Positions 1 to 50,324 of a stretch of DNA of 50,324 nt are shown here, piece by piece; positions within the stretch are counted from its first letter, which is position 1; each line of letters starts with the position of its first letter. This stretch comes from a virus. Taxonomy: Duplodnaviria > Heunggongvirae > Uroviricota > Caudoviricetes. A program made the translations under genes and the position numbers. The DNA lies in IMG/VR virus record IMGVR_UViG_2681813429_000008, positions 1 to 50,324 of that record; one strand, written 5' to 3'. Under the pieces are notes generated by a model. That model did not search any database, had not been told where the DNA came from, and saw nothing but the letters and a program-made list of their open reading frames with translations.

Positions 1-1158
1 ATGCTCACCGTTAAGCAGATTGAAGCAGCAAAGCCGAAAGAAAAACCATACCGCCTACTCGATGGTAATGGCCTGTACCTTTATGTCCCTGTGTCAGGGA
101 AAAAGGTATGGCAGCTTCGCTACAAGATTGACGGTAAGGAGAAAATCCTGACCGTAGGAAAATATCCGCTAATGACTTTGCAGGAGGCAAGAGATAAAGC
201 ATGGACCGCGAGGAAAGACATCTCGGTTGGCATCGATCCGGTAAAAGCGAAAAAGGCTTCGTCTAACAACAATTCCTTTAGTGCGATTTACAAGGAATGG
301 TACGAGCACAAGAAGCAAGTCTGGTCAGTAGGGTATGCGACTGAACTTGCAAAAATGTTTGATGACGACATTTTACCTATCATCGGCGGCCTTGAAATTC
401 AGGATATTGAGCCGATGCAACTGCTGGAAGTAATCCGCAGATTTGAAGATCGCGGTGCAATGGAGCGAGCCAACAAAGCCCGCAGAAGATGCGGCGAGGT
501 TTTCCGTTACGCTATTGTCACTGGTAGGGCTAAATATAACCCGGCACCTGACCTTGCTGACGCCATGAAGGGATACCGCAAGAAGAACTTCCCATTTTTA
601 CCTGCCGACCAGATCCCGGCATTCAACAAAGCACTTGCAACATTTTCAGGAAGTATCGTATCGCTCATTGCGACCAAAGTTTTACGCTACACAGCCCTAA
701 GAACAAAAGAGCTTCGTTCCATGCTATGGAAGAACGTCGATTTTGAAAACAGGATTATCACCATCGACGCCAGTGTGATGAAGGGACGCAAAATTCATGT
801 TGTCCCGATGTCAGACCAGGTGGTTGAACTTCTCACTACACTAAGCTCAATCACTAAACCAGTATCAGAGTTTGTTTTTTCCGGGCGCAACGATAAGAAG
901 AAGCCAATCTGCGAGAACGCGGTGCTACTTGTGATCAAACAAATCGGCTATGAAGGTCTGGAAAGCGGTCACGGATTCAGGCATGAATTCAGCACGATTA
1001 TGAACGAGCACGAATGGCCTGCCGACGCCATTGAAGTGCAACTGGCACATGTCAACGGCGGATCTGTACGTGGAATTTACAACCATGCTCAGTATCTCGA
1101 TAAGCGCAGAGAAATGATGCAATGGTGGGCGGACTGGCTTGATGAAAAGGTGGAGTGA
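1..1158 (+). CDS. int: Tyrosine integrase, P4 family (IntC-like)
   Basis: 385 aa ORF. N-terminal KPKEKPYRLLDGNGLYL arm-binding motif and C-terminal catalytic region (HGFRH ... Y) typical of P4-type integrases. Begins at window base 1, so the true start could lie just upstream. Confidence 0.9.
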   Translation: MLTVKQIEAAKPKEKPYRLLDGNGLYLYVPVSGKKVWQLRYKIDGKEKILTVGKYPLMTLQEARDKAWTARKDISVGIDPVKAKKASSNNNSFSAIYKEWYEHKKQVWSVGYATELAKMFDDDILPIIGGLEIQDIEPMQLLEVIRRFEDRGAMERANKARRRCGEVFRYAIVTGRAKYNPAPDLADAMKGYRKKNFPFLPADQIPAFNKALATFSGSIVSLIATKVLRYTALRTKELRSMLWKNVDFENRIITIDASVMKGRKIHVVPMSDQVVELLTTLSSITKPVSEFVFSGRNDKKKPICENAVLLVIKQIGYEGLESGHGFRHEFSTIMNEHEWPADAIEVQLAHVNGGSVRGIYNHAQYLDKRREMMQWWADWLDEKVE

Positions 1159-14648: not shown

Positions 14649-14738
14649 TTGTTACCCCTGTTTACTCGATGTTCAGCCCATCGGAAGGCAATAGGGTGCC
14701 AGGCCTCATAAAGACAGCCATTGCACGTTATGGGTTAA

Positions 14739-16937
14739 TTACTGCTGTGGTTGTTGCTGAGTTGATTTTTGCAGGATGCTGCTGATGTCCATGCGCAGCG
14801 CATGGCCCTGTGCCTGACTTTTCAGGACAAGCTCTGCATCAGCACGGGCATTGTCTCCTTGCTGTTGCTGGAACTGTCCGAGCAGTTTCAGCGCCTCACG
14901 GATATCAGATTTCTGCTGACTATCGGCAGATGCGAGTATTTTCACAACATTTGCCGCTGCAACCTGAGCATCAGTCTGTGCCTGGAATGCTTTAACCTGA
15001 ATGGCTGCCTGTTCGTTCTGCGCTTTCTGCAATTCAGCCTGACCAGCAAGAAGCTGACCTTGCGCTGCAACCATAGCCGGATCTGGCTGACTGGCCTGTT
15101 GTTGTTTCGCCTGTTCAACCATCTGCTGTTCTTCTGGCGTTCTCGGCTTGATAACTCCAGACAGAAGCAACTGATTGCGGTTGTATTCTTTAAGGTCGTC
15201 CATCCCTTCGCCGTCCATATTGTCGAGGATCATCGACGATACAAGGTCGTGTTTCGGCGTTCCGGGCGGGATAAGTGCCAGCATGGAAAGTAACGACTTA
15301 ACCGTTGCATCACGGCGAGTAGCGAACGACTGACCAACATCGACAGTCACTTCATAGTTACCCTGCGAAAGGTCGTTAAGCGCGATAACCTGCCCTGTCT
15401 GACGGTCAACCACTTCACCAGTCATTAGCGCCACGTCATCGCTGCCGTCCTCATTAACGATACGCATCGGCGTATCACTGCCATAGACTTCACGAGCCAT
15501 AGAAAGCCACACGACGCCAGCACGGCGCATGGATTTAGCCATGTTGTCCATGTAGATATAGGACTGCGTGTCCATCCGGTTAAAGATGCTATCAACGGTA
15601 TCGGTAGCGACGTTGCTCGGCATGTTCTCAAGCTGCGACGCACCTGTAATTTGCTGAATAGCCGTTCCGGTGTACTGCAATAGCCCGGCAAGAGCAGGAG
15701 GCATTTGTGTCGGAGGTGTCCAGCCAGCAACCTGAGCCTCTGAAATGACCGTTCCGTTTTTGTCCTTCTTGCTGGTCATGGGAAGAACTGCAGGTCTTTT
15801 CTTATTCCTCTCTGCCCAGTGATTCATTAATGGGCCGGGAATGAAATCAACATCCACGATAGGAATGCCATCACCGCCAGCCTGAGTAGCGTTATCTGCA
15901 ATCATGGAAACCATCAGGTTCTCAAGACGCTGTGCATCCATCGCTTTTGCTGCGTGGCCTTCGATTCGCTCCTGATTATCAACAAATGAGCGACGCCCAT
16001 ATACCGGGATGAGAGGAATATGTTCACCCGGAATACGCTTCGGTTCTTCCAGCCATTCAGCGCCAGACAGAAGACCGCAATAAACTCTGCGTTTCTTCAC
16101 TGTCCGCTCGCCAATCAGTTCGAATGCACCATCGGTCAGCTCGTCGACAATATCTTTGATTTGCTCTTCATCATAGATTGCCGTTTCTCCGCTGACAGGA
16201 TTGCGCCACGCCGTGAGCTTCACCTTCTCTATGCGAACTTCGTAGTAGCGTCCAACATAGATGGCATCAGGCGTTGACCAGTCATATTGAGTGCCAGTGT
16301 CATCACGAGGAAGGCTTGCCGCGATGGAATCAGGGTATTCAGCCTCGAACGCTTTAGGCGTCATGGAGAACATTTCCATAGCCCACATAGCATCAGAGCG
16401 GTCATATTGCTTGCTGTCCTGATCGAAGAAGACGCATGTCGCTGGGTCGTAAACAGGAAGAAGGCTGATGCGTCGCTGCTCGTTACTCGGATCCATTTCA
16501 TCTTCGTAATCGGCACACATGCGGAAACAACCGAATCCGCCCGTTACAGCATCATCAAATGCGTTATCACACGCTTCGCCACCGGATGTTTCCTGATAGT
16601 CAGCGCGGAATTTGCCGTTCATCTTTTCGGCTAACGCTTCCGATGCCTTATCGTCCTTCGGCCTGAATTTAACGCTGATGCGATTCTGTCGATACTCGCC
16701 AATGATGCGATCACATTCACGGGCAATCTTATTCAGTTCAAAGCGCGGATAATGCTCAAACCTGCCCTCATCAAACGAGTAACCAGCGTTTGTGCTACCT
16801 TCCCACTGTGCGCCGGACACCCTGACGAAACGTTGAGCCTCAATAATCTGCTCACGCATATCCTGCGTTGCTGACCAGGCATTATCAAAGTTGCACAGCA
16901 CCTTGCGATGCCAGTCAGCCATCTTTTTTTCTGCCAT
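14739..16937 (-). CDS. Portal protein (P22 gp1-like)
   Basis: 732 aa. Extensive similarity to the P22 portal as recalled, including the Gln-rich C-terminal barrel (EEQQ..EQAKQ...DPAMV.AQG.LL.GQAEL.KAQN). Confidence 0.9.
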   Translation of the reverse strand: MAEKKMADWHRKVLCNFDNAWSATQDMREQIIEAQRFVRVSGAQWEGSTNAGYSFDEGRFEHYPRFELNKIARECDRIIGEYRQNRISVKFRPKDDKASEALAEKMNGKFRADYQETSGGEACDNAFDDAVTGGFGCFRMCADYEDEMDPSNEQRRISLLPVYDPATCVFFDQDSKQYDRSDAMWAMEMFSMTPKAFEAEYPDSIAASLPRDDTGTQYDWSTPDAIYVGRYYEVRIEKVKLTAWRNPVSGETAIYDEEQIKDIVDELTDGAFELIGERTVKKRRVYCGLLSGAEWLEEPKRIPGEHIPLIPVYGRRSFVDNQERIEGHAAKAMDAQRLENLMVSMIADNATQAGGDGIPIVDVDFIPGPLMNHWAERNKKRPAVLPMTSKKDKNGTVISEAQVAGWTPPTQMPPALAGLLQYTGTAIQQITGASQLENMPSNVATDTVDSIFNRMDTQSYIYMDNMAKSMRRAGVVWLSMAREVYGSDTPMRIVNEDGSDDVALMTGEVVDRQTGQVIALNDLSQGNYEVTVDVGQSFATRRDATVKSLLSMLALIPPGTPKHDLVSSMILDNMDGEGMDDLKEYNRNQLLLSGVIKPRTPEEQQMVEQAKQQQASQPDPAMVAAQGQLLAGQAELQKAQNEQAAIQVKAFQAQTDAQVAAANVVKILASADSQQKSDIREALKLLGQFQQQQGDNARADAELVLKSQAQGHALRMDISSILQKSTQQQPQQ

Positions 16938-16938
16938 A

Positions 16939-18354
16939 TCAACCTACACCACAAGGAATTGAGTAACTGGAATAGTCGGGTTGCGCAGCCGACTCCGGGC
17001 AATGCATACACATCATCAGCGCATCAGCCAGGTTAGGAGATGGAATACCGAGCTTCTGCTTCATTTCGACCTTAGTCATTAGCTCCAGCTTCCCGTTGTT
17101 ATTGAATTTGCGCTGAATCTGCGTCAGTTCTGCAAACAGCTTCTCCAGCATCTTCTCGCCTATCGCTTCTTTGTCGAAACTCAGCATGTCGTCGGGGTCT
17201 GCATACTCACCATGAACAACCGCCCGATATGTCAGATACAGCCTGTCAGCCAGCGCGTAATAGAATTGCGCTCGCTTATTGCGGAATACATCGCCAATAG
17301 TGCGAACGTTGTCGCCCTGTACGACTTCATCGGCCCATGCTCCGGCCTGATACGGTGCATCTTCATCGAATGGCGATTCGCTGCCCTTGAACATCGTGGC
17401 GGTGATTTTCTTGCCGGAGAACGCTTCCGTTGTCTGTCTGCGTAGCCCGGCACCAACACCATCACCATCCCACAGGTAGTGGTCAGCGCCGTCTTCAATC
17501 GCCAGCGAAGTAGCCCAGTCAGCACCATCGTTGATGTCCATCAGCAGACCTTCGGCAATGCGCTTAACTACCGAACCGTGGCGCGATGCGTAACCTTTAG
17601 CATCTGGCCCTGTATCTGACGGGTCATGTGCAGAAACAACAGCGCCTTTCGCTTTCCATCCGAGTTTCTTGTGCGCATCGGTTGCAGCTTCAAGCCATTC
17701 ACGTTTGATGATTGCCATATCACTTGCGCTTACCGGCTCACCCAGCCAGATGTGACGATACAGTGTCGGATTTCTGCGTTTGCACTCTTCCATCTCCAGA
17801 CGGAGAACTTCAGGAAAGTGCGGGTTGTCGGTGTAGTTCACCGTCAGCAGACAAATATCATCAGGAGGATTTACGACGAATCGCTGATAGGTATCGTCGA
17901 GGATGTTCTTCGGGTTAAAGCTCACCCATATTTCAGAGAACGGCTTACGGATGGTTGGAATCAGGATATCCCATGATTCCTTCGTTACCGCTTCCGCTTC
18001 TTCCACCCAGCAGATATCAATGCCTTCGAGCGATTTAATCTTCGTCGGGTTGTTTTTGATGCCGTAGAACATGAATTCAGCATTCGTTCCGAGATGACGA
18101 ATCATTGAACGCTGAATTTCAAACTCAGCCGAATACCCTTCACGCTCGATGGTATCTTCAAGCAACCGGATTACAGAATCGCTGATACTGTTTTGCAGTT
18201 CACGAGCGCAAAGAATACGCACAGGCTGCCGACGTGCCGCCTCAACAAGCAGCCTCGCAATTGCCCATGATTTACCGCTACCTCGACCGCCTTTGGCGAC
18301 TTTGTAGCGATGCGCCTCAATGAACGGTTCAAAGATAGGATTAATCGAGGTCAT
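16939..18354 (-). CDS. Terminase large subunit
   Basis: 471 aa. Walker A motif (KGGRGSGKS) near the N-terminus and nuclease-type C-terminal half. Immediately upstream of portal. Confidence 0.9.
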   Translation of the reverse strand: MTSINPIFEPFIEAHRYKVAKGGRGSGKSWAIARLLVEAARRQPVRILCARELQNSISDSVIRLLEDTIEREGYSAEFEIQRSMIRHLGTNAEFMFYGIKNNPTKIKSLEGIDICWVEEAEAVTKESWDILIPTIRKPFSEIWVSFNPKNILDDTYQRFVVNPPDDICLLTVNYTDNPHFPEVLRLEMEECKRRNPTLYRHIWLGEPVSASDMAIIKREWLEAATDAHKKLGWKAKGAVVSAHDPSDTGPDAKGYASRHGSVVKRIAEGLLMDINDGADWATSLAIEDGADHYLWDGDGVGAGLRRQTTEAFSGKKITATMFKGSESPFDEDAPYQAGAWADEVVQGDNVRTIGDVFRNKRAQFYYALADRLYLTYRAVVHGEYADPDDMLSFDKEAIGEKMLEKLFAELTQIQRKFNNNGKLELMTKVEMKQKLGIPSPNLADALMMCMHCPESAAQPDYSSYSIPCGVG

Positions 18355-21749: not shown

Positions 21750-21825
21750 TGGTGCTGGTTAACGGACTTGAACCGCTACCCATTCGCTTACAAGGCGACT
21801 GCTCTACCATTGGAGCTAAACCAGC
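21750..21825 (-). tRNA. tRNA with anticodon UGU (Thr-like)
   Basis: Hand-folded 76 nt cloverleaf: 7/7 bp acceptor stem (GCTGGTT/AACCAGC), D-arm GCTC/GAGC, anticodon loop CTTGTAA, T-arm with TTCAAGT loop, encoded 3' ACCA. Confidence 0.6.
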
Positions 21826-21830
21826 ATATT

Positions 21831-21905
21831 TGGCGGGACAGCGTGGACTCGAACCACGATAAGAAGGTTAACAGCCTTCCGTAATGACCTTTATACGACT
21901 GACCC
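21831..21905 (-). tRNA. tRNA-like sequence, anticodon GUU (Asn-like), degenerate
   Basis: 75 nt. Good anticodon arm (GAAGG-CTGTTAA-CCTTC) and T-arm (CGTGG-TTCGAGT-CCACG) and 3' GCCA, but acceptor stem has a T-T mismatch and D-stem only 3 bp. Confidence 0.4.
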
Positions 21906-35792: not shown

Positions 35793-36272
35793 ATGAAAAT
35801 CTGCTCAAGATGCCATCAACAGAAGGAAGAAAGGGACTTTCAAATCAGAAGAGCATCCAGAGATGGATTAACTGCCGCTTGCCGGGCTTTCCTGGCTGAA
35901 TACGACAAAGAGCGCGCGGGATTGCCACATCGAGTATCAGCAAGGAGAGAATATCAATCATCGGAACGCGGCAGAGAACGGTGTAACGCAGCCAAAAAGC
36001 GGTTCATTCAGAGCAACCCATGGAAAAGAAAAGCCCACATCATCGTGGGTAATTTTTTGCGCGACGGTAAGCTAATCCGACCACCACAATGTGAGTGCTG
36101 CGGATCAGAATGTAAACCACAGGCGCACCACTGCGACTACAGCAAACCAACCGATGTGATGTGGCTCTGCAAGTCATGTCATGTCGAGTGGCACAAACAT
36201 AACAAACCTATCTACCCAGACGAGGAGCCAGTAACTCTCCCCTTCCCTCGTCACGCTATTCACGCAATTTAA
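35793..36272 (+). CDS. Zinc-binding HNH-motif protein
   Basis: 159 aa with CxxC...CxxC...HHCDY...CKSCH...WH pattern. Confidence 0.5.
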   Translation: MKICSRCHQQKEERDFQIRRASRDGLTAACRAFLAEYDKERAGLPHRVSARREYQSSERGRERCNAAKKRFIQSNPWKRKAHIIVGNFLRDGKLIRPPQCECCGSECKPQAHHCDYSKPTDVMWLCKSCHVEWHKHNKPIYPDEEPVTLPFPRHAIHAI

Positions 36273-36285
36273 TCAGGAGAAAATC

Positions 36286-36582
36286 ATGCCAGCGCCTCAG
36301 TATGGTGCGGATGACCCGCGCCGCTGTTCCGGCAATTCCGTATCGGAGGTGCTGGATAAATTCAGAAAAAACTACGACCTGATAATGTCGCTACCGCAGG
36401 AAACGAAAGAGGAAAAGGAATTTCGCCACTGCATATGGCTTGCAGAGAAAGAAGAACGAGAGCGAATTTACCAGACATCAATCCGACCATTCCGCAAAGC
36501 CACATATACCCACTTCCCTGAATATATCGACCCACGCCTGCGTAATTACCGCTCACGCTATGGCGCTATCAGTAGTGACTGA
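36286..36582 (+). CDS. Hypothetical early protein (possibly Abc2-like anti-RecBCD)
   Basis: 98 aa ORF in the position occupied by abc genes in P22; the assignment is from uncertain recollection only. Confidence 0.45.
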   Translation: MPAPQYGADDPRRCSGNSVSEVLDKFRKNYDLIMSLPQETKEEKEFRHCIWLAEKEERERIYQTSIRPFRKATYTHFPEYIDPRLRNYRSRYGAISSD

Positions 36583-36592
36583 GGAATTAACA

Positions 36593-36883
36593 ATGAAAAC
36601 AATGAAGCTAAACATCGACCTCGGAAAATACGTTATTACCGGAACCAAACACGACCTGATTCTTAGTGAAAGAGGAATTATCAAAGAAGGTGAGAATGCG
36701 GGGAAAGAAACACTAAGCCGTATCGGTTATTACAGCAAGTTTGAGCATCTGGTTAAAGAATTATGCAACCGTGAAATCCTGTTATCTCAGGCGCAGACGC
36801 TACAGGATATTCAGCAGCATATCGAAACTTTAGGTATGTCACTTAGCATGGCTATTGACCAGTTCATGGAGAGTAAATCATGA
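36593..36883 (+). CDS. Hypothetical early protein
   Basis: 96 aa; ATG at 36593 preceded by GAGGAA. Confidence 0.5.
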   Translation: MKTMKLNIDLGKYVITGTKHDLILSERGIIKEGENAGKETLSRIGYYSKFEHLVKELCNREILLSQAQTLQDIQQHIETLGMSLSMAIDQFMESKS

Positions 36884-37023
36884 GAGGACTTGCATACAAT
36901 CCCCGGCATTCTTCCGGCAGAAATGATTATTCGCCAACGCGTAAAGCCAATGCCATCGAGGGAGGAATTGCTTAAGAGAAATTCTTTTCCATCAGTGAAT
37001 CAAAACAAATATCTGAATGCAAT

Positions 37024-37491
37024 GTGGCGGAGTGGGAAGAAATGAAACAAATGACACTAATTGAGATGGATGGTTTTCTGAAAGGTAAATGCATCCCCCG
37101 AGATTTAAAGGTTAACGAAACAAACGCTGAATATCTGGTGCGTAAGTTCGGTGAACTTGAATCAAAACTAGAAACGGCGTTGCGGGAGTGTCGTTCTGCT
37201 GGAATCACGATTGATAACCTTGAGGCTAAATGCGCGAAGATGGCTGCTGAAAATACCTCGCTTAAGCAATCTGAGAAGGAATTTAATGACTTTTGTCGTG
37301 AGGAGTTTAGCGAATGGGAAGATGATGTTACTGAAACCCCAGCCACCGATGCTTTCCTGGCTGAAGTACGGGCGCAGGGCGTGGAGATGGCTATGGAGCA
37401 TATGCAGTCGAGCGGTTCGTTAACATTTGGAGATTGCTACATATCACTTAACGAGTTCGCCGCAGAGCTTCGCAAAGGAGGTAACCAGTGA
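37024..37491 (+). CDS. Hypothetical early protein (acidic)
   Basis: 155 aa ORF; start may be an internal Met. Confidence 0.45.
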
Positions 37492-37787
37492 GTGTATATC
37501 TCATTGATAAACGCCGACGTGGGCAACAAATACCACCTGTAGGAATTCCGAATCACACATGGTTTTGCGTACTTGATATCGATGGTATGGATACGTTGAT
37601 CGACACTCGTCATTACTGCGATACCGCAACAGCTACTCCGGCGAAAGCAAAGAAAATGGCTGCTCTGATAGAAAACTGGACTCCACCTGATGGTTGGTGC
37701 AATGGGAATGATCGAGATTGGCACGAAAAAATGAAGGGCTATATCTGCGATTTTTTACGTAAATGCAACGGCTTCAGGGTGATGTGA
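37488..37787 (+). CDS. Hypothetical early protein
   Basis: 99 aa, GTG start overlapping the upstream stop. Confidence 0.4.
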   Translation: MSVYLIDKRRRGQQIPPVGIPNHTWFCVLDIDGMDTLIDTRHYCDTATATPAKAKKMAALIENWTPPDGWCNGNDRDWHEKMKGYICDFLRKCNGFRVM

Positions 37788-37788
37788 T

Positions 37789-38448
37789 ATGACCAAAATT
37801 AACTATCAGGCACTGCGTGAGGCGGCAGAACGTGCAATTCCGGCAATGGAACGCCTGTTAATGTTGCCAGTTGATGATGATCTGATAAGCGAACAGGAAC
37901 TTAAAGATTACGGTGTGGATATTGATGCGCTCAACGCCTTCAAATTTCTGGCCGGACCAGAAACCGTGCTGGCACTACTGGATGAGCTGGAAAGAAACCA
38001 GCAATACATAAAACGCCGTGACCAGGAGAACGAGGATATTGCGCTAACGGTAGGGAAGCTGCGCGTTGAGCTGGAAGGCAAAGACAGCAAAATAGCCAAT
38101 CTTACCGCCGAACGCGATGCTCTTCGTGAAGGTGAGATGGGCGACGCTAGGCATAGCAACACACGGGCCGCAGCTGATATCTACTTCCAACTGGTCGAGG
38201 AGTGCGAAATTCCTGCTGGCGGTTCTCTGGTCGAGTACGTTGACGATATGCGCGAGAAGTTGGAAGCCGCAGAGAAGCGCATAGCAGAACTGGAAGCACG
38301 GGAGGTTGTACTGCCGCGTGCGCACGATGTTCACCCATTAGGGCCGCAGTCGGCGAAAATTTTTTGTGAGTTTCACCGGAGTATCGTGAACAGATGCGCC
38401 GATGAGATTCGCAAGGCTGGCGTCAAAGTCAGCATCAAGGGGAATTAG
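37789..38448 (+). CDS. Coiled-coil early protein (possibly Ead/Ea22-like)
   Basis: 219 aa with central coiled coil; family assignment from recollection only. Confidence 0.5.
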   Translation: MTKINYQALREAAERAIPAMERLLMLPVDDDLISEQELKDYGVDIDALNAFKFLAGPETVLALLDELERNQQYIKRRDQENEDIALTVGKLRVELEGKDSKIANLTAERDALREGEMGDARHSNTRAAADIYFQLVEECEIPAGGSLVEYVDDMREKLEAAEKRIAELEAREVVLPRAHDVHPLGPQSAKIFCEFHRSIVNRCADEIRKAGVKVSIKGN

Positions 38449-38452
38449 GGAT

Positions 38453-39094
38453 ATGGCTGAACTAACCAAAGAATGGCTGAAGCAAACTATCGCTGAATAC
38501 GAAGCCAATCGTGATGAATTACCGTTTGGACTGGATACCAACAGTGCCATTGAGCTTCAGGCGTTCAAGTTGGCGCTGGCATCGCTGGAAGCAGAACCAG
38601 TTGCTTATATTTTCAAACATCCGGCCGGAAAATTATTCTGGGCTTTGACGGATGAAAGCAATAAAGATCAATCGGACGTTATTCCTGTTTATGCCGCCCC
38701 TCCAGTGCCAGTAGTACCTGAAGAAAAACCAATGCCTAACCCTCTTAAAATGTACGCGGTCGATGCTGTTGCCGCTATTGCAGAGGTGAGAGGCTGGAAC
38801 TCCTGCCGCGCCGCCATGCTTCATGGTGCCGAACCTGTAAGCCAAACTTACAAGTTGAACGAGCTATCTGGCAACTCTCCGGTAACTCCGGATGGTTGGA
38901 TAAGCTGTAGTGATCGAATGCCGGAAGACACCAAAATGTTACTGGCATTTAGTCAAGGTGAAATCGTGGCCGCATATTGGAACTGGGTTGTAAATCCAAT
39001 TGATTACAAAAAATATAGAGCTTTCACGTATTTATCAGGAAATATCTTGGATGACGTAACTCACTGGATGCCGCTACCAGAGCCTCCACTTTGA
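38453..39094 (+). CDS. DUF551-like protein
   Basis: C-terminal motif (W...DRMPED...THWMPLPEPP) typical of DUF551 proteins in enterobacterial prophages. Confidence 0.55.
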   Translation: MAELTKEWLKQTIAEYEANRDELPFGLDTNSAIELQAFKLALASLEAEPVAYIFKHPAGKLFWALTDESNKDQSDVIPVYAAPPVPVVPEEKPMPNPLKMYAVDAVAAIAEVRGWNSCRAAMLHGAEPVSQTYKLNELSGNSPVTPDGWISCSDRMPEDTKMLLAFSQGEIVAAYWNWVVNPIDYKKYRAFTYLSGNILDDVTHWMPLPEPPL

Positions 39095-39190
39095 AAGCGA
39101 AGCTTATACATATCTTTTACATCAGCAATCTATTGTTAATCTCCAATCAATGTTACGTTGTCATCTCTCTCATGCTTTGGAGGTAGTGAT

Positions 39191-39370
39191 ATGTCTTGTC
39201 CAAAATGCGGTTCTGGAAATATTGCAAAAGAAAAAACAATGCGTGGATGGTCTGATGATTATGTGTGCTGCGATTGCGGATACAACGACTCTAAAGACGC
39301 ATTTGGAGAGCGTGGTAAAAACGATTTTGTCAAAATTAATAAAGAACGCGAAGGCAACGAAAAAAGCTAA
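39191..39370 (+). CDS. Small zinc-ribbon protein
   Basis: 59 aa with CPKCGSGN...CCDCGYND; ATG after GGAGGT. Confidence 0.5.
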   Translation: MSCPKCGSGNIAKEKTMRGWSDDYVCCDCGYNDSKDAFGERGKNDFVKINKEREGNEKS

Positions 39371-39501
39371 TTTATTTATTCATATATGAAAACAATGTAA
39401 CCAATATTCGAATTGAAGAACTGAAAGAACACCAAGCCGCCTGATGGCGGTTTTTTATTGCCTGATTTGCAGGTTCGATTCCCTATTCGGAGATAGCACT
39501 C

Positions 39502-39702
39502 ATGCAACACGAACTACAGCCTGATTCACTGGTTGATTTGAAATTCATCATGGCTGATACTGGCTTTGGTAAAACCTTCATCTACGACCGGATTAAGTCC
39601 GGCGACCTGCCAAAAGCCAAAGTTATCCACGGGCGAGCAAGATGGTTATATCGTGACCATTGTGAATTCAAAAATAAGCTCTTAAGCCGCGCCAATGGGT
39701 AA
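39502..39702 (+). CDS. xis: Excisionase (Xis/AlpA-family winged helix)
   Basis: 66 aa, last gene of the PL operon, directly upstream of the att core. Confidence 0.6.
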   Translation: MQHELQPDSLVDLKFIMADTGFGKTFIYDRIKSGDLPKAKVIHGRARWLYRDHCEFKNKLLSRANG

Positions 39703-39774
39703 AATAGCGGGTAAAATATTTTTCACATCTAAAAAACATCATTCCAATCAATCCCCTGCAACCTCAAGTAGATG

Positions 39775-39790
39775 TCTGCAGGGGACACCA
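39775..39790 (+). other. att core: copy of a tRNA-Arg (argW-like) 3' end, junction between prophage and satellite
   Basis: TCTGCAGGGGACACCA ends in an aminoacyl acceptor 3' end and matches the last ~15 nt of E. coli argW as recalled. Lies between xis and the second integrase, about 160 bp upstream of its start. Confidence 0.55.
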
Positions 39791-39950
39791 TGAACACTTC
39801 TCACTAAGTTCAATTAATTCCATAACTCACTGTTTTAACTGATATCATCTCCTTATACTCGTCCAGCAAAGTACCATTATTTCTAATGGAATCTATACAT
39901 CTTTGCGTATAACATTGTGTATAACTGAGTTCGATCTTTTTTCTATACAC

Positions 39951-41126
39951 ATGCTGCTATCTGACATCCAAATAAAAAGAGCAAAACCGAAGGACAAACC
40001 CTATACGCTTAACGATGGTATGGGGCTATCACTCCTGATCGACACAGCGGGCAGTAAAGGCTGGCGTTTTCGCTATCGCTTTGCAGGTAAGCCTAAGATG
40101 ATTTCCTTTGGCGTATATGGCGATGTGTCGTTGGCACAGGCACGTACCAAACGTGATGAAGCGCGTTCGATGTTAGCCAACGGGATAAACCCAAGTGAAG
40201 CCAGAAAAGCAGATAAGATTGCTTTGCAGTTCGCGCATGAGAACAGCTTTGAGTCTGTGGCCAGAGAATGGCACTCATCGAAAAAAGCCACCTGGTCAGA
40301 GGGTTATGCAAAAGAGGTTCTCAATTGTATGGAAAAGGATATTTTTCCTTTTATCGGCCAGCGCCCAATTGAGCAGATTGAACCATTAGAACTGCTAACC
40401 GTCCTGCAAAAAATAGAGAAAAGAGGTGCGCTAGAGCAAACCAGTAAGATCCGCCGCCGCTGTGGTGAAGTGCTTCGTTATGCTGTTGCCACTGGTAGAG
40501 CAAAGTATAATTTTGCACCCGATTTAGCTATCGCACTCAACAAACCTAAAACCCAACACTTCCCGTTCCTGACTGAAAGCGAGTTGCCCGAGTTCGTTAA
40601 TGCTCTGGATAACTATCAGGGCAGTTTAGTTACCAAATACGCCACGCAGCTGTTGATGCTAACAGGCGTGCGAACAATTGAACTACGTGCAGCGGAATGG
40701 GCTGAGTTTGATTTAGATAATGCCTTATGGGAGATCCCCAAAGAACGGATGAAGAAACGCCGCCCCCATCTGGTTCCGTTATCAACTCAGGCGATCAATA
40801 TCCTGAAAAAGCTGCAAGAAATAACAGGGAATTACAGCCTCGTTTTCCCTGGCCGGAATGACGTCAGTAAACCAATGAGCGAAGCCAGCATCAACAAAGT
40901 GATAAAACTACTGGGTTATCACGGTCGGTTAACGGGTCACGGTTTCAGGCATACCATGAGCACCATCTTGCATGAGCATGGGTTTGAAAGTGCCTGGATT
41001 GAAATGCAGCTTGCGCATGTTGATAAGAACTCTATTCGAGGTACTTACAATCATGCGCAATATATTAAAGATCGACAAGTAATGATGGAATGGTACGCTA
41101 GCTTATTAAATACGACCTGCTATTAA
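39951..41126 (+). CDS. int: Tyrosine integrase, P4 family (second copy)
   Basis: Start chosen at ATG MLLSDIQIKRAKPKDKPYTLNDG. Shares the RRCGEV.RYA..TGRAKYN.APDLA and HGFRHT motifs with the first integrase. Confidence 0.9.
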   Translation: MLLSDIQIKRAKPKDKPYTLNDGMGLSLLIDTAGSKGWRFRYRFAGKPKMISFGVYGDVSLAQARTKRDEARSMLANGINPSEARKADKIALQFAHENSFESVAREWHSSKKATWSEGYAKEVLNCMEKDIFPFIGQRPIEQIEPLELLTVLQKIEKRGALEQTSKIRRRCGEVLRYAVATGRAKYNFAPDLAIALNKPKTQHFPFLTESELPEFVNALDNYQGSLVTKYATQLLMLTGVRTIELRAAEWAEFDLDNALWEIPKERMKKRRPHLVPLSTQAINILKKLQEITGNYSLVFPGRNDVSKPMSEASINKVIKLLGYHGRLTGHGFRHTMSTILHEHGFESAWIEMQLAHVDKNSIRGTYNHAQYIKDRQVMMEWYASLLNTTCY

Positions 41127-42056
41127 ATCCAGCATGAAACAAATATGGTGAGTAATTTGATACTGTTTGTTTTTTGGCAACCCAGGGAAATGCCTTACAG
41201 TTGGTTGACTATTGTAATAATAATAGTTAAGACCAATGTTGCTGCCAAACTGGGTTGGATGTTGGGGAACAAGATTTGTAATTTGATCTGAAACATCTAA
41301 AAATTTTGCAGTAACATTTGAACTTCCTCGTTGCGTGTTGCTTGATACAAAATGACGAATCCAAACTGTATTCGCTTGTAAATTCTTGAACACCAAATGT
41401 GCGGCAACAGCAGAAGGTTGACCACCTCCAAGATCTAGTACCTGGCCAGTAATTGTATAATCGCCAAATCCTAAGTAATTTTGTCCCACGAATTGATGTG
41501 CGTGCGTGAAAAGTTCCGGCCCATTATAATCAGCATTTTTTGCTAACTTTCTAAAGTTATCGCTAATAATAATTAACTTCGACAAAGGAAGAAGAGCGCA
41601 CTGATTAGGAAGCATTTTATTATTTAAAACAACATGATAACTAATCAATTGATTTGTCGCCAACAACTGAATATCAGAGTTGGATAATGATGGATTATCA
41701 TATAGAAGTGCAACTCGTCTATTTAAGTTAGCATTCAACCAATTATTAATATCATTAATCGTTGTATTGGGCTGAATAAGATATCCAGAGATGATATTAT
41801 TTTTATTTGTTAATACACTTGATAAATTTTGATTTAAAGTTAAGACGTTATTGTGTGAAGAAAAATCTTCCTGATAAGGATTAAGGATAACAATTATGTC
41901 AGAATTCCAAACATTTAAACATGTTAATAAATTTCTCGTATTGACGTTAATTGGTTCTAAAATTGGTAGCAGACCATTTAGGCTAACTCCCTTCGCAACG
42001 AGGTCCCTAAGGCATAATAACTCTGTACTTCTCGCATACAAATATGGGCTATACAT
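41106..42056 (-). CDS. Hypothetical protein, AT-rich cargo gene B (downstream gene of a two-gene cassette)
   Basis: 316 aa, Asn/Leu-rich, coding GC far below the surrounding DNA. Its 3' end overlaps the integrase 3' end by ~21 nt. No recognised domain. Confidence 0.6.
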   Translation of the reverse strand: MYSPYLYARSTELLCLRDLVAKGVSLNGLLPILEPINVNTRNLLTCLNVWNSDIIVILNPYQEDFSSHNNVLTLNQNLSSVLTNKNNIISGYLIQPNTTINDINNWLNANLNRRVALLYDNPSLSNSDIQLLATNQLISYHVVLNNKMLPNQCALLPLSKLIIISDNFRKLAKNADYNGPELFTHAHQFVGQNYLGFGDYTITGQVLDLGGGQPSAVAAHLVFKNLQANTVWIRHFVSSNTQRGSSNVTAKFLDVSDQITNLVPQHPTQFGSNIGLNYYYYNSQPTVRHFPGLPKNKQYQITHHICFMLDLIAGRI

Positions 42057-42077
42057 AACTTACAACTCCTGAGGATA

Positions 42078-42959
42078 TCAACAAATTTTAATTTTTACAT
42101 CCATCAAATTCATGATGAATTCTTTTTGCTTTCTTGATAATGGTGTTGCATAACCTAAAACACGTAAACATGCTGGAAGAGAATAAATATAATCCAAAAA
42201 AACTTTATCGTTACATCTTTTTTTCATAGCAGAGATAAAGTATTTATTTGCTATGTTTAATGGCATCTGCATGAATATCTCTTTACAATATTCATAAACC
42301 AATCCGTTAGGCATATTTATTTTAGTTGAAGTGTAATCTTCTATTATAGCTAAGAACTCTTCCTTTCTAAGAACTGAAAACAAGCTGTCACTTTTAATAT
42401 AATCAATATTTGAATCTGCCTCCTTAATGACACTCAATTGATCTTTTTTATTCAAAACCATAACTCCCACTCTGGGGAGATTTAAAGCACAATATTTACT
42501 TGCATACTCTGGATGTGTAACTATATACACTTTATCAAAAACATCCAAATAATCAGGGGCTTGAGTAATCAACCTTTTTGGTGAATCATACTCTGTCTTA
42601 ATCTCGTAAGCTGTAGACGTACCATTAAACACCGCAACATCCACTATAGAGTTTTTAATTGGTAACTCTATGGACGACGAACTTGTTTTTGGGCTGTGCT
42701 TACCGAATATTATTTTATTGACAAGTGCTGTCTTATAAACATATTCATTTCTATAATTCAGACGCAAAAAATCATATAATGATGTAAATAAATCCCTTAG
42801 TGAAATCTCATGTTCATTATTATCATTGTTTGAAAACAGTGTTTCATAGCAGTAAGAATCAAAACTCCCAAATAAATCCGAAATATCCTTACCTTTTGCT
42901 AAGGATGAAAAAATGGGGCGACGGAAAAATTTAGCATATTCCTTTTTATTATGACTCAT
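42078..42959 (-). CDS. Hypothetical protein, AT-rich cargo gene A; possible PD-(D/E)xK nuclease-like motif
   Basis: 293 aa. Motif IVDVAVFNGTSTAYEIKTEYD has the hydrophobic-D ... E-x-K spacing of restriction-endonuclease-like folds. 21 nt upstream of gene B. Confidence 0.6.
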   Translation of the reverse strand: MSHNKKEYAKFFRRPIFSSLAKGKDISDLFGSFDSYCYETLFSNNDNNEHEISLRDLFTSLYDFLRLNYRNEYVYKTALVNKIIFGKHSPKTSSSSIELPIKNSIVDVAVFNGTSTAYEIKTEYDSPKRLITQAPDYLDVFDKVYIVTHPEYASKYCALNLPRVGVMVLNKKDQLSVIKEADSNIDYIKSDSLFSVLRKEEFLAIIEDYTSTKINMPNGLVYEYCKEIFMQMPLNIANKYFISAMKKRCNDKVFLDYIYSLPACLRVLGYATPLSRKQKEFIMNLMDVKIKIC

Positions 42960-47288: not shown

Positions 47289-47517
47289 CGCGCATCACTC
47301 CCTTAATTGTGCTGGTTTCCTTAACAACGCCATCCAGTTGTTCGGCAATACAGGCCACTAAAGCCGCAGCGCCTTCCGCTGAAACAGTTCTCGCTCCATT
47401 CACTGTGGGCACGGACAAGACCTCTGCAAGAAACTCACTGGCCAGTGCCGCCCGTAACAGACGACTCTCCCCCTGTTCACTCAATATGCAGCCTTGCTTA
47501 AAATTCATGGATTTCAT
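47281..47517 (-). CDS. Hypothetical satellite protein
   Basis: 78 aa ORF, translationally coupled to its neighbours. Confidence 0.45.
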   Translation of the reverse strand: MKSMNFKQGCILSEQGESRLLRAALASEFLAEVLSVPTVNGARTVSAEGAAALVACIAEQLDGVVKETSTIKGVMRDE

Positions 47518-47717
47518 GCAACCACCTCCCCGGCTCTTTTCACAGGGATACGGGCAGCAAAGCTCAGGATAAATTCAGTGGCAAGTTTAAGGCGTGCAGC
47601 ATGCTCGCATTCTGCGATTACACGCACAGGGCGTGGACGGGCATCACGGTCTGTACGGCGGACAGCCAGAAAGACAAAGGTAAATTCAGGGTGAGATAAA
47701 GCAGGGACTGTAGCCAT
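47514..47717 (-). CDS. Hypothetical small protein
   Basis: Only the last 67 codons of the 196-codon track ORF look genuine: internal ATG (MATVPALSHPEF...) preceded by AAGGAGG at ideal spacing. Confidence 0.45.
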   Translation of the reverse strand: MATVPALSHPEFTFVFLAVRRTDRDARPRPVRVIAECEHAARLKLATEFILSFAARIPVKRAGEVVA

Positions 47718-48149
47718 AATGGCAACCTCCTTCAGATAGCGGGTAACGCTACCACCGGAGTTCCTACGCTCATGGGTGGTAGCCCAGACGGGGGTAGGAA
47801 TACCGGCTCTGAAGGATACCGGCCAGCCCGAAAGCTGCCCCGCCTGGACTACCATAATTCTGATGATGTGGCGTAAAAAATAAAAAAATACAATCAGCCA
47901 CCACACCATAAATTTTAGGTGAGTCAAAGCTGCGACACAAAAAAACACGCCTAGCGCGTGTAGTATCGCCTTCAGATAACACGGGTTCCTACGCCCGGCT
48001 GCCGATTTTGCGGCAACCTTTAAACTATATCCCGCGCATTCCTGGTGAGGCAAGAAATTTATAACCGAAAACTGATCATTGCCTGGATTAATTAACGCTG
48101 GCATGCTTAAGCCTCTGCTTAAAAATAGTTCTTCATTTTTCCTGATGCT

Positions 48150-48191: not shown

Positions 48192-49196
48192 TCAATCCGC
48201 AAACGTCAGGGTGCACTCATCAACAGCCGCGTACAGTTCAGGTTCACCGAGTGCATAACCTTCATTGCGCAGGTAGGAATGCACGTATTCACTGCTTTCA
48301 TCATCAAACTCAGCACGAAACCAGCGTGTTATCGCCTGAGTGTAAATATGCAGATTATCCAGCGTCGTTACTGCCAGACGCTTACCCGGCATAAACGGGG
48401 GAATAAACGCAAAGCGGCCAGCAACAGAACTTGTAGCCATCTGTGCCGCATTCACATCAGACGGGCGGTCTGCGGCATTAAATAACTTCAGGCGTTGATG
48501 TGCTGCCAGCTCTGCCCCAACCAGTACAACCAGACGAGGATCTTCACGAAACTGCTCAGCAATAAGCTCTGTAATCAGATGGTTGGCCAGAGCATCAATA
48601 TTTTTCCAGGTGCCAGTCTCTCCCAGAGTGACAGGCTCAGAGATGATTTGCTTTCCGTTCCCGTAGGCTTTCGCCAGTGCATGCCAGCCAATATTGACAT
48701 CCTCGCCTTTTTTATTGATTTCCGGGTTTGTAGTATTTGCAATCGACACACCGTTGAAACCGACCCGCAGCATGTCCAGCGCATATGCCTGGGCAAAAAA
48801 GCTCTCAACCGTTTTCTCAAACTCATCCGGCACGCCGGTATGGTAAATATGAGACATATCGGAATAGCTGATCCGGGCGCAGGTATCCGTCTCTGTCAGA
48901 AAGAACTCCGTACCATTGATTGCCATTTTTTTGTGGAAACGGCCACCATCCACACGTCCGGTATACAGTTCACTGGCACCAATATTGACGGCATTACCTG
49001 ACACGGCGTTAACATCACGTAGGGTAATATTTTTAATAAGCCACCCGGATTCCAGAATTGAGGTACGCAGTATATTTTCAGTAGGTTCGCTTAATGCAAA
49101 GCGTCTGTTTGATTCTTCCTGATAGTTAGTGCCAGTGACGAATTTATTATGATAACGACGTGCTGCGTCCGGCCTTTCAGTTTTGAAGGCATACAT
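48192..49196 (-). CDS. P2 GpN-family major capsid protein homolog
   Basis: 334 aa, colinear with P2 GpN as recalled (e.g. LRVGFNGV..., EDPRLVVLVGAELAA..., LDNLHIY...). No database search was run. Confidence 0.6.
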   Translation of the reverse strand: MYAFKTERPDAARRYHNKFVTGTNYQEESNRRFALSEPTENILRTSILESGWLIKNITLRDVNAVSGNAVNIGASELYTGRVDGGRFHKKMAINGTEFFLTETDTCARISYSDMSHIYHTGVPDEFEKTVESFFAQAYALDMLRVGFNGVSIANTTNPEINKKGEDVNIGWHALAKAYGNGKQIISEPVTLGETGTWKNIDALANHLITELIAEQFREDPRLVVLVGAELAAHQRLKLFNAADRPSDVNAAQMATSSVAGRFAFIPPFMPGKRLAVTTLDNLHIYTQAITRWFRAEFDDESSEYVHSYLRNEGYALGEPELYAAVDECTLTFAD

Positions 49197-49218
49197 AGTT
49201 TTTCACCTTTTTAAGTAT

Positions 49219-50079
49219 TTAAGAAAAGATTTTATTTTTGTACTCAGTAACCAGATTGTATTTCATTACATGCTCAACATAATCCCGGTCACTTACGACT
49301 GAACGTAATACATAATTATCTGCTCGATAGTACTCCCTGTAAGCCATAGCTCTTGCCATTCCACCGTTATTTAATACATAACGATCAGTTGGAACGCTAC
49401 AACGACTAATAATTTCACTCACGGAATCAGATAAAGACTTGAGTGCATCAGTAATAAATTTAATATCACGGACAACGTCACTGTCATTAAATACAGAAAT
49501 AAAATCAGCAGGGATCTGGCCGGATTGAGGAAATATATTCAGTAAACGCTTATCGATTCCCTTCCCAATGTAGTTTCCTTCATCGGCCAGTACTCCCGGC
49601 AAAAGCTTGATCGTGCTCAATCGACTATGTTGTTCATTCAACCGGGAAACAGCCAGATGGTAATACCGTTCAGCATCCGCTCGTTCAGCATGCCCCATTT
49701 TATTCGTTTTGGCTTCAGCAATGCTACTGACGCCGTTTTTTGAGAATGTGCTTTTCCATGCAACTTCCGCATTTGTCACTTCACGCTGCCGGAAAGATAA
49801 CTCTTCCTCTTCCTGACGACACAACTGGGCATAACGGCTCAGGAGCAGGTTGATCTCATTCGCCACAGTTTCCGTATCAGGTACTGTTAACCCCGTAAGT
49901 GAATACAGCTTTTCACCTTTAGCTCGCAGCTTATTCAGTGAATATATTTCAATAATACGCACAATACAGGCCGTGTCGCTATGAGTCTCTTTAAATGATC
50001 TTACTTTGTAACTATCTAACACCGACACATGTTCGTTCTTAATTGATGCCAATTTCTTCTTAAAAACATTGTCAACCAT
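49219..50079 (-). CDS. Hypothetical protein upstream of the capsid homolog
   Basis: 286 aa, moderately AT-rich. Size matches P2 GpO but no sequence similarity was recognised. Confidence 0.5.
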   Translation of the reverse strand: MVDNVFKKKLASIKNEHVSVLDSYKVRSFKETHSDTACIVRIIEIYSLNKLRAKGEKLYSLTGLTVPDTETVANEINLLLSRYAQLCRQEEEELSFRQREVTNAEVAWKSTFSKNGVSSIAEAKTNKMGHAERADAERYYHLAVSRLNEQHSRLSTIKLLPGVLADEGNYIGKGIDKRLLNIFPQSGQIPADFISVFNDSDVVRDIKFITDALKSLSDSVSEIISRCSVPTDRYVLNNGGMARAMAYREYYRADNYVLRSVVSDRDYVEHVMKYNLVTEYKNKIFS

Positions 50080-50096: not shown

Positions 50097-50324
50097 TTAG
50101 GAGTTTAATTTTCTATTGAGAATATTCTTCTCTATCCATTCATTAACTTCATGCTCCACCCATGCAACAGAACGAGAACCGATAGAAACTTGGTTCGGAA
50201 ATTCATCATTCTTTATCTTTAGATAAATTGTTGACTTGGGTAAGCCAGTCAAATTAATCACTTCTGATATTCTCAGAAGTCTATATCTTTTTTGGGGTGC
50301 GTTTTCCCGAGGCAATAAGCTCAT
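50097..50324 (-). CDS. alpA: AlpA-family transcriptional regulator
   Basis: 75 aa; YRLLRISEVINLTGLPKSTIYLKIKNDEFP...VAWVEHEVNEWI is the canonical AlpA winged helix. ORF starts at the window edge, so the true start may lie beyond. Confidence 0.8.
   Translation of the reverse strand: MSLLPRENAPQKRYRLLRISEVINLTGLPKSTIYLKIKNDEFPNQVSIGSRSVAWVEHEVNEWIEKNILNRKLNS

What the first reader, a model, noticed from the sequence alone, without database searches (positions are those of the whole stretch)
39703..39950. Tandem integration: tRNA-Arg-like att core joins the prophage to a P4-like satellite
TCTGCAGGGGACACCA (~39775-39790) looks like the 3' end of a tRNA gene, matching the end of E. coli argW as recalled. 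It lies right after the prophage xis and ~160 bp before a second P4-family integrase closely related to the one at the window start. This implies two elements with related integrases inserted sequentially at one tRNA-Arg attachment site. A flanking inverted repeat (CCCCTGCA ... TGCAGGGG) may be part of the att arms.
Basis: partly seen in the sequence, partly recalled or inferred. Interest (0 to 1): 0.7.

Follow-up and report, generated by a model that had tools for sequence, protein, structure and literature searches.

The report
Prophage–satellite junction at argW att core
A 16-base copy of the end of the arginine tRNA gene argW marks the seam where a P22-like prophage and a separate 11-kb P4-like satellite sit back to back at one well-studied chromosomal attachment site; it is a clean but ordinary case of tandem integration.

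Summary
Window 39776-39791 (CTGCAGGGGACACCAT) is identical to the 3' end of E. coli argW, tRNA-Arg(CCU), plus one T. It is also the published 16-nt core of the KplE1/CPS-53, HK620, Sf6 and Kapi1 IntS/TorI recombination module; K-12 annotates its distal copy as pawZ.

The "xis" is TorI (100% identical to K-12) and the first integrase is IntS (99%). Left of the core is the phage P arm. Right of it is the arm and promoter region of a second integrase, Int2, which belongs to an 11-kb P4-like satellite. The site is therefore a hybrid of phage attR and satellite attL.

The outer repeat copies lie just outside the window. Both were found in loci whose sequence is identical to the window:
- A full argW ends 160 nt upstream of base 1.
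- A third core lies about 0.5 kb beyond the window end.

Among 5,426 complete E. coli genomes:
- 912 have the empty site.
- 425 have the satellite alone.
- 857 have a TorI-type attR alone.
- 13 have this hybrid.
- 6 have the reverse order.

A public assembly holds the same phage joined torI-core-intS, the attP form.

Corrections: the two integrases are only 46% identical, and the satellite lacks Psu and Sid. Nothing here is new in kind; interest is low.

The parts
1..1158 (+). intS, integrase of the P22-like prophage. Its attL (full argW plus core) lies just upstream of the window.
   Evidence: 383/385 aa identical to K-12 IntS. Domains PF13356, PF22022 and PF00589. In L008, which is identical to window 1-5158, argW ends 160 nt before this ATG.
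39434..39453 (+). Terminator-like hairpin upstream of torI.
39467..39482 (+). TTGCAGGTTCGATTCC, a 16-nt stretch identical to the argW T-arm. It lies inside the region that the HK620 record annotates as the pI promoter and cII site.
   Evidence: Origin unexplained.
39502..39702 (+). torI, the recombination directionality factor (excisionase) of the prophage.
   Evidence: 66/66 aa identical to K-12 TorI. RefSeq annotation in matching genomes.
39697..39718 (+). Two direct GGGTAAAATA repeats in the phage P arm, candidate IntS arm-type sites.
   Evidence: The same stretch is annotated as an attP repeat in the HK620 record. The TAAA motif of IntS P' arm sites is described in PMC2951348. Inferred, not tested.
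39752..39760 (+). Left arm (TCCCCTGCA) of the 9-nt inverted repeat with the core.
39776..39791 (+). 16-nt att core CTGCAGGGGACACCAT, the 3' end of argW plus T. It is the middle copy of three direct repeats and the equivalent of pawZ in K-12.
   Evidence: Published core in PMC2951348 and PMC8787464.
39792..39950 (+). Satellite P' arm and int2 promoter region, with clustered G[TC]GTATA[AG] repeats (39905, 39917, 39943; a fourth at 40001). These are candidate Int2 arm-type sites.
   Evidence: Identical to the sequence directly following argW in satellite-only genomes. Four of the window's five motif hits cluster here, and two more lie on the satellite's other arm in L001. Inferred.
39951..41126 (+). 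int2, the P4-type tyrosine integrase of the satellite.
   Evidence: Annotated directly after tRNA-Arg in 425 genomes.
41106..42959 (-). sce7725/sce7726 gene pair, cargo in the integrase-delta slot of the satellite.
   Evidence: Hotspot position per PMC13586616.
43639..43911 (-). Ogr/Delta-like zinc-finger activator.
   Evidence: PF04606
44194..46881 (-). Alpha-like primase/helicase (Zn ribbon, Toprim, DUF927).
47514..48104 (-). Ash/Icd-like gene, with C4 antisense RNA (47772-47859) and isrK (47940-48017).
48192..50079 (-). P2-family major capsid homologue (48192-49196) and a 286-aa protein of unknown family (49219-50079).
50097..50324 (-). AlpA-like HTH / excisionase-type regulator of the satellite. 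It is the last gene before the satellite's distal core, which lies about 0.5 kb past the window end.
   Evidence: PHROG 2790 and 66. Distal core in L001 and L004, whose satellite is identical to the window's.

Best explanation
Window 39703-39950 is a hybrid attachment site. It is made of the P arm of a P22-like (Lederbergvirus-type) prophage, the shared 16-nt core, and the P' arm of an 11-kb P4-like satellite.

Shown:
- The prophage carries the KplE1/HK620/Sf6 IntS-TorI recombination module.
- Its attP order is torI - core - intS, so after integration intS ends up next to argW and torI at the far end.
- The satellite has the same layout with its own proteins: core, then int2, then the rest of the element, then an AlpA-like gene and a second core.
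- Both attP sites carry the last 15 nt of argW plus T, so either element restores the tRNA when it integrates.

Inferred:
- Each integrase exchanges strands inside the 16-nt identity.
- Each is guided by its own arm-type repeats: GGGTAAAA-type for IntS, GYGTATAR-type for Int2. The modules would then share a core but be orthogonal, and each element could leave separately.
- IntS + TorI + IHF acting on argW-attL and the hybrid site would release a 39,951-bp phage circle and leave argW|int2.
- Int2 with its own directionality factor acting on the hybrid site and the distal core would release an 11.0-kb circle and leave a K-12-like torI|dsdC attR.

Inferred order of events (about 60% confidence): the satellite was resident first, and the phage then integrated into the tRNA-proximal copy.
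For: Core identity:
- The core is identical to the argW 3' end and to the published 16-nt KplE1 core.
- TorI is 100% and IntS 99% identical to the experimentally studied K-12 proteins.

Alignment of six att sites:
- 16 columns are invariant.
- The left flank of the window site matches the K-12, HK620 and Sf6 P arm.
- The right flank matches the sequence that follows argW in satellite-only genomes.

Three copies:
- L008 has 0 mismatches to window 1-5158 and holds the full argW/core at -175..-160.
- The satellite segment 39776-50324 has 0 mismatches to L001 and L004, where the third core lies 11,034-11,049 nt downstream of the copy at its int2 end, i.e. argW's own core in L001 and the middle copy in L004.

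Census of 5,426 complete genomes:
- empty site 912
- argW|int2 425
- torI|dsdC 857
- hybrid 13
- reverse hybrid 6

attP form: L011 joins window 35952-39791 to the intS arm and then window 1-5158, all with 0 mismatches.

Arm motifs cluster on the matching arms of each element.

Order of arrival:
- The identical satellite is found with and without the prophage.
- The 13 hybrid genomes carry different prophages.
- In the two reverse arrays examined, the tRNA-distal IntS element is a decayed remnant and the satellite lies next to argW.
- Both patterns fit the rule 'newest element lies next to the tRNA'.
Against: - The two outer core copies are not in the window. They were read from other assemblies that are sequence-identical over the overlapping parts, not from a single contig covering the whole array of this strain.
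- No recombination was measured here.
- In the hybrid site, the roughly 24 nt of bacterial flank present in the published 135-bp attR substrate (PMC3509656) is replaced by satellite DNA, so IntS/TorI efficiency on it is unknown.
- The satellite's own identity block with argW is 20 nt (ATTC + core), and the ATTC is lost in the hybrid site. If Int2 cuts there, satellite excision could be impaired.
- The arm-type motifs were defined post hoc.
- The order of arrival cannot be read from the junction sequences, because both histories give the same product.
Confidence: 0.9

Rival explanations
1. Same tandem array, opposite history. The IntS prophage was resident at argW first, and the satellite later integrated into the prophage's attR (phage P arm + core + dsdC-side flank).
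For: The junction sequences are exactly what this history would also give. 857 genomes offer a torI|dsdC attR as a possible target. The distal copy keeps the native right-hand flank.
Against: The prophage attR lacks the tRNA-side flank, including the ATTC that the satellite's 20-nt identity block shares with argW. The identical satellite sits directly at argW in 425 genomes, and the hybrid genomes carry several different prophages. In the reverse arrays the decayed element is the distal one.
Confidence: 0.3
2. The 50-kb window is one composite mobile element with two integrases that moves as a unit, and the internal core is only a relic.
For: The window was delimited as a single unit that starts and ends on gene boundaries. 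The two parts are contiguous in 13 complete genomes.
Against: Each part occurs alone, flanked by its own pair of cores, and the two occur in either order. The attP-form contig joins torI directly to intS without the satellite. 51 kb exceeds the size of known relatives (38-46 kb records). The distal core lacks IntS/TorI arm sites.
Confidence: 0.03
3. The tRNA-like 15-mer is a chance match or ordinary intergenic sequence with no attachment-site role.
For: It is short, and no complete tRNA is predicted at the site.
Against: 0.06 matches are expected by chance even with 2 mismatches allowed. Homology breakpoints in thousands of genomes fall exactly at its edges. It equals the experimentally defined KplE1 core.
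Confidence: 0.01

Closest known systems
KplE1 / CPS-53 attR of E. coli K-12 (torI - pawZ - dsdC), the IntS/TorI recombination module (Panis, Mejean, Ansaldi; PMC2951348, PMC3509656)
   Same: Identical 16-nt core, identical TorI, 99% identical IntS, the same P arm (about 97-98% identical), and the same layout with int next to argW and the directionality factor at the far end.
   Different: K-12 has bacterial dsdC-side DNA right of the core, whereas the window has the arm of a second element. The K-12 prophage is a 10-kb remnant, whereas this one is a full-length P22-like genome of 39,951 bp, measured from the argW core in L008 to the middle core.
attP of phages HK620, Sf6, Kapi1, CUS-3 and other Lederbergvirus-type phages that integrate at argW
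   Same: The torI/hkaC - core - int arrangement, with 96-98% DNA identity over 39440-39791. The Kapi1 study deleted the attB copy of this sequence and lysogens at that site were lost (PMC8787464).
   Different: Those records show the joined attP. The window shows the integrated form, with the right half exchanged for satellite DNA.
Satellite phage P4 and P4-like satellites (SatelliteFinder markers: Int, Psu, Delta, Sid, AlpA, Ash, Alpha)
   Same: About 11 kb in size. The tRNA 3'-end core lies directly upstream of a P4-type integrase. It has an Ogr/Delta activator, an alpha-like primase, Ash/Icd with a C4-type RNA, an AlpA-like regulator, and cargo genes in the slot next to the integrase.
   Different: No Psu or Sid was detected. 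In their place are a P2-family capsid homologue and an unknown 286-aa protein. It integrates at argW rather than at the leucine tRNA gene that P4 uses (the P4 site is from my own knowledge).
Tandem arrays of integrative elements at tRNA genes
   Same: Direct repeats of the tRNA 3' end separate successive elements, and the full tRNA stays at one end. The P4-like literature notes tandem elements (PMC8628076).
   Different: Here the two partners are of different kinds, a P22-like phage and a P4-like satellite. They have integrases of 46% identity and apparently different arm sites.

Membership tests
IntS/TorI (KplE1-HK620-Sf6) recombination module, attR | 16-nt core CTGCAGGGGACACCAT identical to the argW 3' end | tested here: met
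   Window 39776-39791. Published core.
IntS/TorI (KplE1-HK620-Sf6) recombination module, attR | TorI directionality factor gene immediately upstream of the core, with the conserved P arm | tested here: met
   TorI 66/66 identical. P arm nearly identical to K-12, HK620 and Sf6.
IntS/TorI (KplE1-HK620-Sf6) recombination module, attR | IntS at the opposite end, with attL (argW + core) overlapping its promoter | tested here: met
   IntS 383/385 identical. argW/core lies 160 nt upstream of the ATG in L008, which is identical to window 1-5158. This part lies outside the window itself.
IntS/TorI (KplE1-HK620-Sf6) recombination module, attR | Bacterial (dsdC-side) flank right of the core, as in the 135-bp attR substrate used in vitro | tested here: not met
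   The right flank is satellite DNA (GAACACTT...) instead of (T/C)CTTGTGTTTATCCC. The site is therefore a hybrid, not a plain attR.
IntS/TorI (KplE1-HK620-Sf6) recombination module, attR | Excisive recombination with attL that yields attP | not testable with these tools
   Indirect only. A public assembly (L011) holds the identical phage in the torI-core-intS form.
Integrated element bounded by direct repeats of a tRNA 3' end | The same repeat at both ends of each element, three copies for two elements | tested here: met
   The middle copy is in the window. The outer copies are in sequence-identical loci L008, L001 and L004. The full array is seen in one closed genome, OZ040950.
Integrated element bounded by direct repeats of a tRNA 3' end | Empty site and single-occupancy sites exist in the species | tested here: met
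   912 empty, 425 satellite only, 857 TorI-type attR next to dsdC.
P4-type tyrosine integrases (Arm-DNA-bind_3 / DUF4102 N-terminus) | Domains PF13356 + PF22022 + PF00589 | tested here: met
   Both IntS and Int2 have all three. Their mutual identity is 46%.
P4-like satellite (SatelliteFinder core set) | Integrase, Delta, Alpha, Ash and AlpA-like genes within about 11 kb | tested here: met
   Marker list from PMC13586616. The AlpA assignment rests only on PHROG excisionase/regulator hits.
P4-like satellite (SatelliteFinder core set) | Psu and Sid (capsid-size and decoration genes) | tested here: not met
   No Pfam, PHROG or NCBIfam hit to Psu or Sid among the satellite ORFs. A P2-family capsid homologue and an unassigned 286-aa protein occupy that region. 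SatelliteFinder's own profiles were not run.
P4-like satellite (SatelliteFinder core set) | Mobilisation by a P2-like helper; cos site | not tested
   No helper or cos analysis was done. The neighbouring prophage is P22-like, not P2-like.

The most novel reading that the evidence does not exclude
The tandem layout may wire the satellite to a phage that is not its helper.

- No terminator lies between the torI stop and the int2 ATG.
- The IntS/TorI arm sites now sit about 70-250 nt upstream of int2.
- Induction of the P22-like prophage could therefore read through into int2. Alternatively, IntS/TorI binding could repress it.
- The shared core could also let one integrase act on the other element's site.

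This would be position-dependent cross-talk between two otherwise orthogonal recombination modules. None of it was tested.
Probability: 0.12. Interest if true: 0.45.

Novelty: already known. Interest (0 to 1): 0.15.

Why it matters
The value is mainly practical.

- The 50.3-kb "provirus" is two independent elements, a 39,951-bp P22-like phage and an 11.0-kb satellite, fused by a boundary call that starts at the intS ATG and ends at the last satellite gene.
- Treated as one phage, it would inflate the genome size. It would also credit the phage with a second integrase, a candidate defence gene pair and a P2-type capsid gene.
- The 16-nt core gives an exact cut point for splitting such calls.

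Biologically it is a tidy example of at least three integrase lineages converging on the same argW core: IntS, Int2, and the integrase of a third satellite that is 40% identical to Int2. The arrays fit a 'newest next to the tRNA' pattern. None of this changes current understanding.

Tried and rejected
- **tRNA and RNA family scans.** ARAGORN and Rfam (gathering thresholds) find nothing at the site, as expected for a 15-nt fragment.
- **Promoter scan.** The sigma-70 scan of 39300-40100 found no promoter-like site. The torI and int2 promoters could not be placed by consensus.
- **Papers not held.** The original mapping paper of IntS/TorI/IHF sites (JBC 2007) and the Moritz & Welch argW-dsdCXA paper are not in the library. 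Site assignments on the P arm therefore rest on the HK620 record's annotation and on PMC2951348.
- **Source genome.**
  - The best hybrid-junction match among complete RefSeq genomes is 99.1%, so the source strain is not in that set.
  - L008 is identical over 5.2 kb, but its contig ends inside the prophage.
- **Inverted repeat as core-type sites.** I rejected the CCCCTGCA/TGCAGGGG repeat as the pair of core-type sites, because the arms are 16 nt apart and the left arm lies outside the attP/attB identity.
- **Satellite among phage records.** The satellite has no DNA relatives among 50,697 phage records, apart from 112 nt around the C4 RNA.
- **Searches not run.** I ran no further search on the satellite's capsid homologue and its 286-aa neighbour, since they are outside the finding.

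Full report
**What is in the sequence**

The finding's coordinates (39703-39950) are exactly the intergenic stretch between a 66-codon gene (39502-39702, +) and a 391-codon integrase gene (39951-41126, +).

- CTGCAGGGGACACCA lies at 39776-39790 and occurs once in the window. With up to two mismatches allowed, 0.06 occurrences are expected by chance.
- No complete tRNA is predicted there. ARAGORN and Rfam find only the prophage's own tRNA-Thr and tRNA-Asn at 21750-21905.
- The 9-nt inverted repeat TCCCCTGCA (39752-39760) / TGCAGGGGA (39777-39785) is present.
- In 100,000 shuffles of the two 150-nt flanks, a reverse-complement match to the core of 9 nt or more appeared in 0.2%.

**Which tRNA**

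- In E. coli SA186 the gene between yfdC and dsdC is tRNA-Arg with anticodon CCT. It ends ...GGTTCGATTCCTGCAGGGGACACCA.
- In K-12 this gene is argW.
- The window matches its last 15 nt plus the following T. Base 39775 (T) does not match, because argW has C there.
- Megablast of 39300-41200 against 5,426 complete E. coli genomes shows many genomes in which homology begins exactly at 39776, at 100% identity. In those genomes tRNA-Arg directly precedes the same integrase.

**What the flanks are**

I aligned six att sites: the window, the K-12 attR, both ends of the satellite in SA186, and argW-intS and the middle site of strain OZ040950.

- There are 16 invariant columns, CTGCAGGGGACACCAT.
- Left of the core, the window equals the torI-side arm of K-12 KplE1.
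- Right of the core, it equals the sequence that follows argW in satellite-only genomes.
- The 16-mer is the published duplicated core of KplE1/CPS-53 (PMC2951348). It is shared by HK620, Sf6 and Kapi1 (PMC3509656, PMC8787464).
- K-12 annotates its distal copy as the pseudogene pawZ.
- The small gene is TorI, 66/66 identical to K-12.
- The integrase at 1-1158 is IntS, 383/385 identical.
- The published 135-bp attR substrate starts at the primer CTCTTAAGCCGCGCCAATGG, which is window 39679-39698.
- The window therefore keeps the whole phage-side part of that substrate (39679-39791). The roughly 24 nt of bacterial flank is replaced by satellite DNA.

**The three copies**

The window begins at the intS ATG and ends at the start codon of the last satellite gene, so both outer copies fall just outside it.

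- L008 (GCA_012762975.1) has 0 mismatches to window 1-5158. It carries yfdC and a full argW, with the core at window-equivalent -175..-160. The phage unit, core start to core start, is 39,951 bp.
- The satellite segment 39776-50324 has 0 mismatches to SA186 (L001) and OZ040950 (L004). There the next core copy lies 11,034 and 11,049 nt downstream, just before dsdC. The difference comes from a (GGCTG)n tract of 17 versus 20 units.
- OZ040950 shows the complete array in one closed chromosome: yfdC - argW - intS ... torI - core - int2 ... HTH - core - dsdC.

**Independence of the two elements**

I built 316-nt synthetic junctions and counted genomes with at least 80% coverage among the 5,426:

| Junction | Genomes |
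|---|---|
| empty argW\|dsdC | 912 |
| argW\|int2 (satellite alone) | 425 |
| torI\|dsdC (K-12 type) | 857 |
| torI\|int2 (this hybrid) | 13 |
| satellite end\|intS arm (reverse order) | 6 |

- These are lower bounds, because flanks vary between strains.
- In D6 and PSJ-42, two of the reverse arrays, the satellite lies next to argW. The distal IntS/TorI element is a decayed remnant of about 10 kb.
- Strain CUVET17-972 has torI - core followed by a different, canonical P4-like satellite with two Psu-family genes and Delta. Its integrase is only 40% identical to Int2.
- At least three integrase lineages therefore use this core.
- A Logan assembly (SRR5006221 contig 210, L011) joins window 35952-39791 through the core to the intS arm and window 1-5158, all with 0 mismatches. 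This is the attP form of this very phage, without the satellite.

**Mechanism**

Shown:
- The layout of both modules.
- The shared core.
- The hybrid composition of the middle site.

Taken from the literature on the identical module:
- IntS, TorI and IHF recombine attL and attR in vitro.
- attL overlaps the intS promoter, and intS is autoregulated.

Inferred from sequence:
- The two integrases use different arm-type repeats.
- GG[GA]TAAAA occurs twice at 39697-39718 on the phage P arm and four times just upstream of intS in L008.
- G[TC]GTATA[AG] has five hits in the whole window. Four are at 39905-40008, and two more lie 70-82 nt left of the satellite's distal core in L001.
- The first set coincides with the repeats annotated as attP in the HK620 record and contains the TAAA motif of IntS P' sites.
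- The modules therefore look orthogonal apart from the core, and each element should be able to excise alone, leaving the single-occupancy junctions seen in hundreds of genomes.

Order of arrival (inference, about 0.6): satellite first, phage later, at the tRNA-proximal copy.
- The satellite is base-for-base identical with and without the prophage.
- The hybrid genomes carry different prophages. Only about five of the 13 share this tailspike region.
- In the reverse arrays it is the older-looking element that is distal.

- IntS and Int2 share the P4-type architecture but are only 46% identical.
- The satellite shows Int, Ogr/Delta, an alpha-like primase, Ash/Icd with a C4-type RNA, and an AlpA-like regulator. 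That is 5 of the 7 P4 markers listed in PMC13586616.
- It has no Psu or Sid. Instead it has a full-length P2-family capsid homologue and an unassigned 286-aa protein.
- The prophage is a Lederbergvirus-type phage. Its closest records are vB_EcoP-720R6, CUS-3, phiv205-1 and Kapi1. It is not a P2-type helper, so the two are neighbours because they share a site, not because they form a helper-satellite pair.

**Verdict**

The site, its core, its proteins and the phenomenon of tandem occupancy are all documented, and the same array is present in at least 13 complete RefSeq genomes. Novelty: already known. Interest: low. The main practical use is to split this provirus call into its two elements at 39776-39791.

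Noticed in passing
window 39467-39482 (also L005 11276-11291 in K-12): TTGCAGGTTCGATTCC, 20 nt upstream of the torI ATG, is 16/16 identical to the argW T-arm. Together with the core at 39776 it tiles the last 31 nt of argW, with about 292 bp (torI plus the P arm) in between. It is conserved in KplE1, HK620 and Sf6, and the HK620 record annotates this stretch as the pI promoter with a cII site. It could be a relic of an older, longer att identity block or a coincidence of promoter sequence; this is unexplained.
   Followed up: partly
window 48192-50079: The satellite carries a full-length P2-family major capsid homologue (PF05125, E 9.5e-67). It is 48% identical to the capsids of ESSI-2-like phages and only distantly similar to P2 gpN. 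Next to it is a 286-aa protein with no family or structure match. These sit where a P4-like element would be expected to have sid/psu. This may be a satellite that supplies its own capsid protein.
   Followed up: partly
window 41106-42959: An sce7725/sce7726 gene pair lies between int2 and the Ogr/Delta gene, which is the known P4 defence hotspot. sce7726 hits the PADLOC candidate family PDLC02989 (E 1.2e-18); sce7725 has no PADLOC hit.
   Followed up: partly
window 47772-48017: Rfam C4 antisense RNA (81 bits) and isrK (69 bits) overlap the Ash/Icd-like gene of the satellite. This is a P1/P4-type RNA immunity region.
   Followed up: no
L001 23824-23908; L004 23203-23302; L006 13975-14024 (just beyond the window end): A (GGCTG)n microsatellite lies between the satellite's AlpA-like gene and its distal core. 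It has 17, 20 and 10 units in three strains and is the only length difference between otherwise identical satellite copies.
   Followed up: no
L015 (E. coli CUVET17-972) 8877-18078: A second kind of tandem array: a P22-like prophage, then torI and the core, then a canonical P4-like satellite with two Psu-family genes and Delta. Its integrase is only 40% identical to Int2. About ten further genomes gave the same partial match pattern.
   Followed up: partly
window 39702-39951: No terminator-like hairpin lies between the torI stop and the int2 start; the only one on the + strand is upstream of torI at 39434-39453. Transcripts through torI could therefore continue into the satellite integrase gene.
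   Followed up: no
window 39761-39764 compared with K-12, HK620, Sf6, OZ040950, AH19B041: The four bases just after the conserved TCCCCTGC in the phage P arm are a small hypervariable patch (aacc / tgct / cgct / cgcg) inside an otherwise almost invariant arm.
   Followed up: no
window 1 and 50324: The window starts exactly at the intS ATG and ends exactly at the start codon of the last satellite gene. This suggests a provirus call trimmed to gene boundaries that removed both outer att copies and merged two elements.
   Followed up: yes
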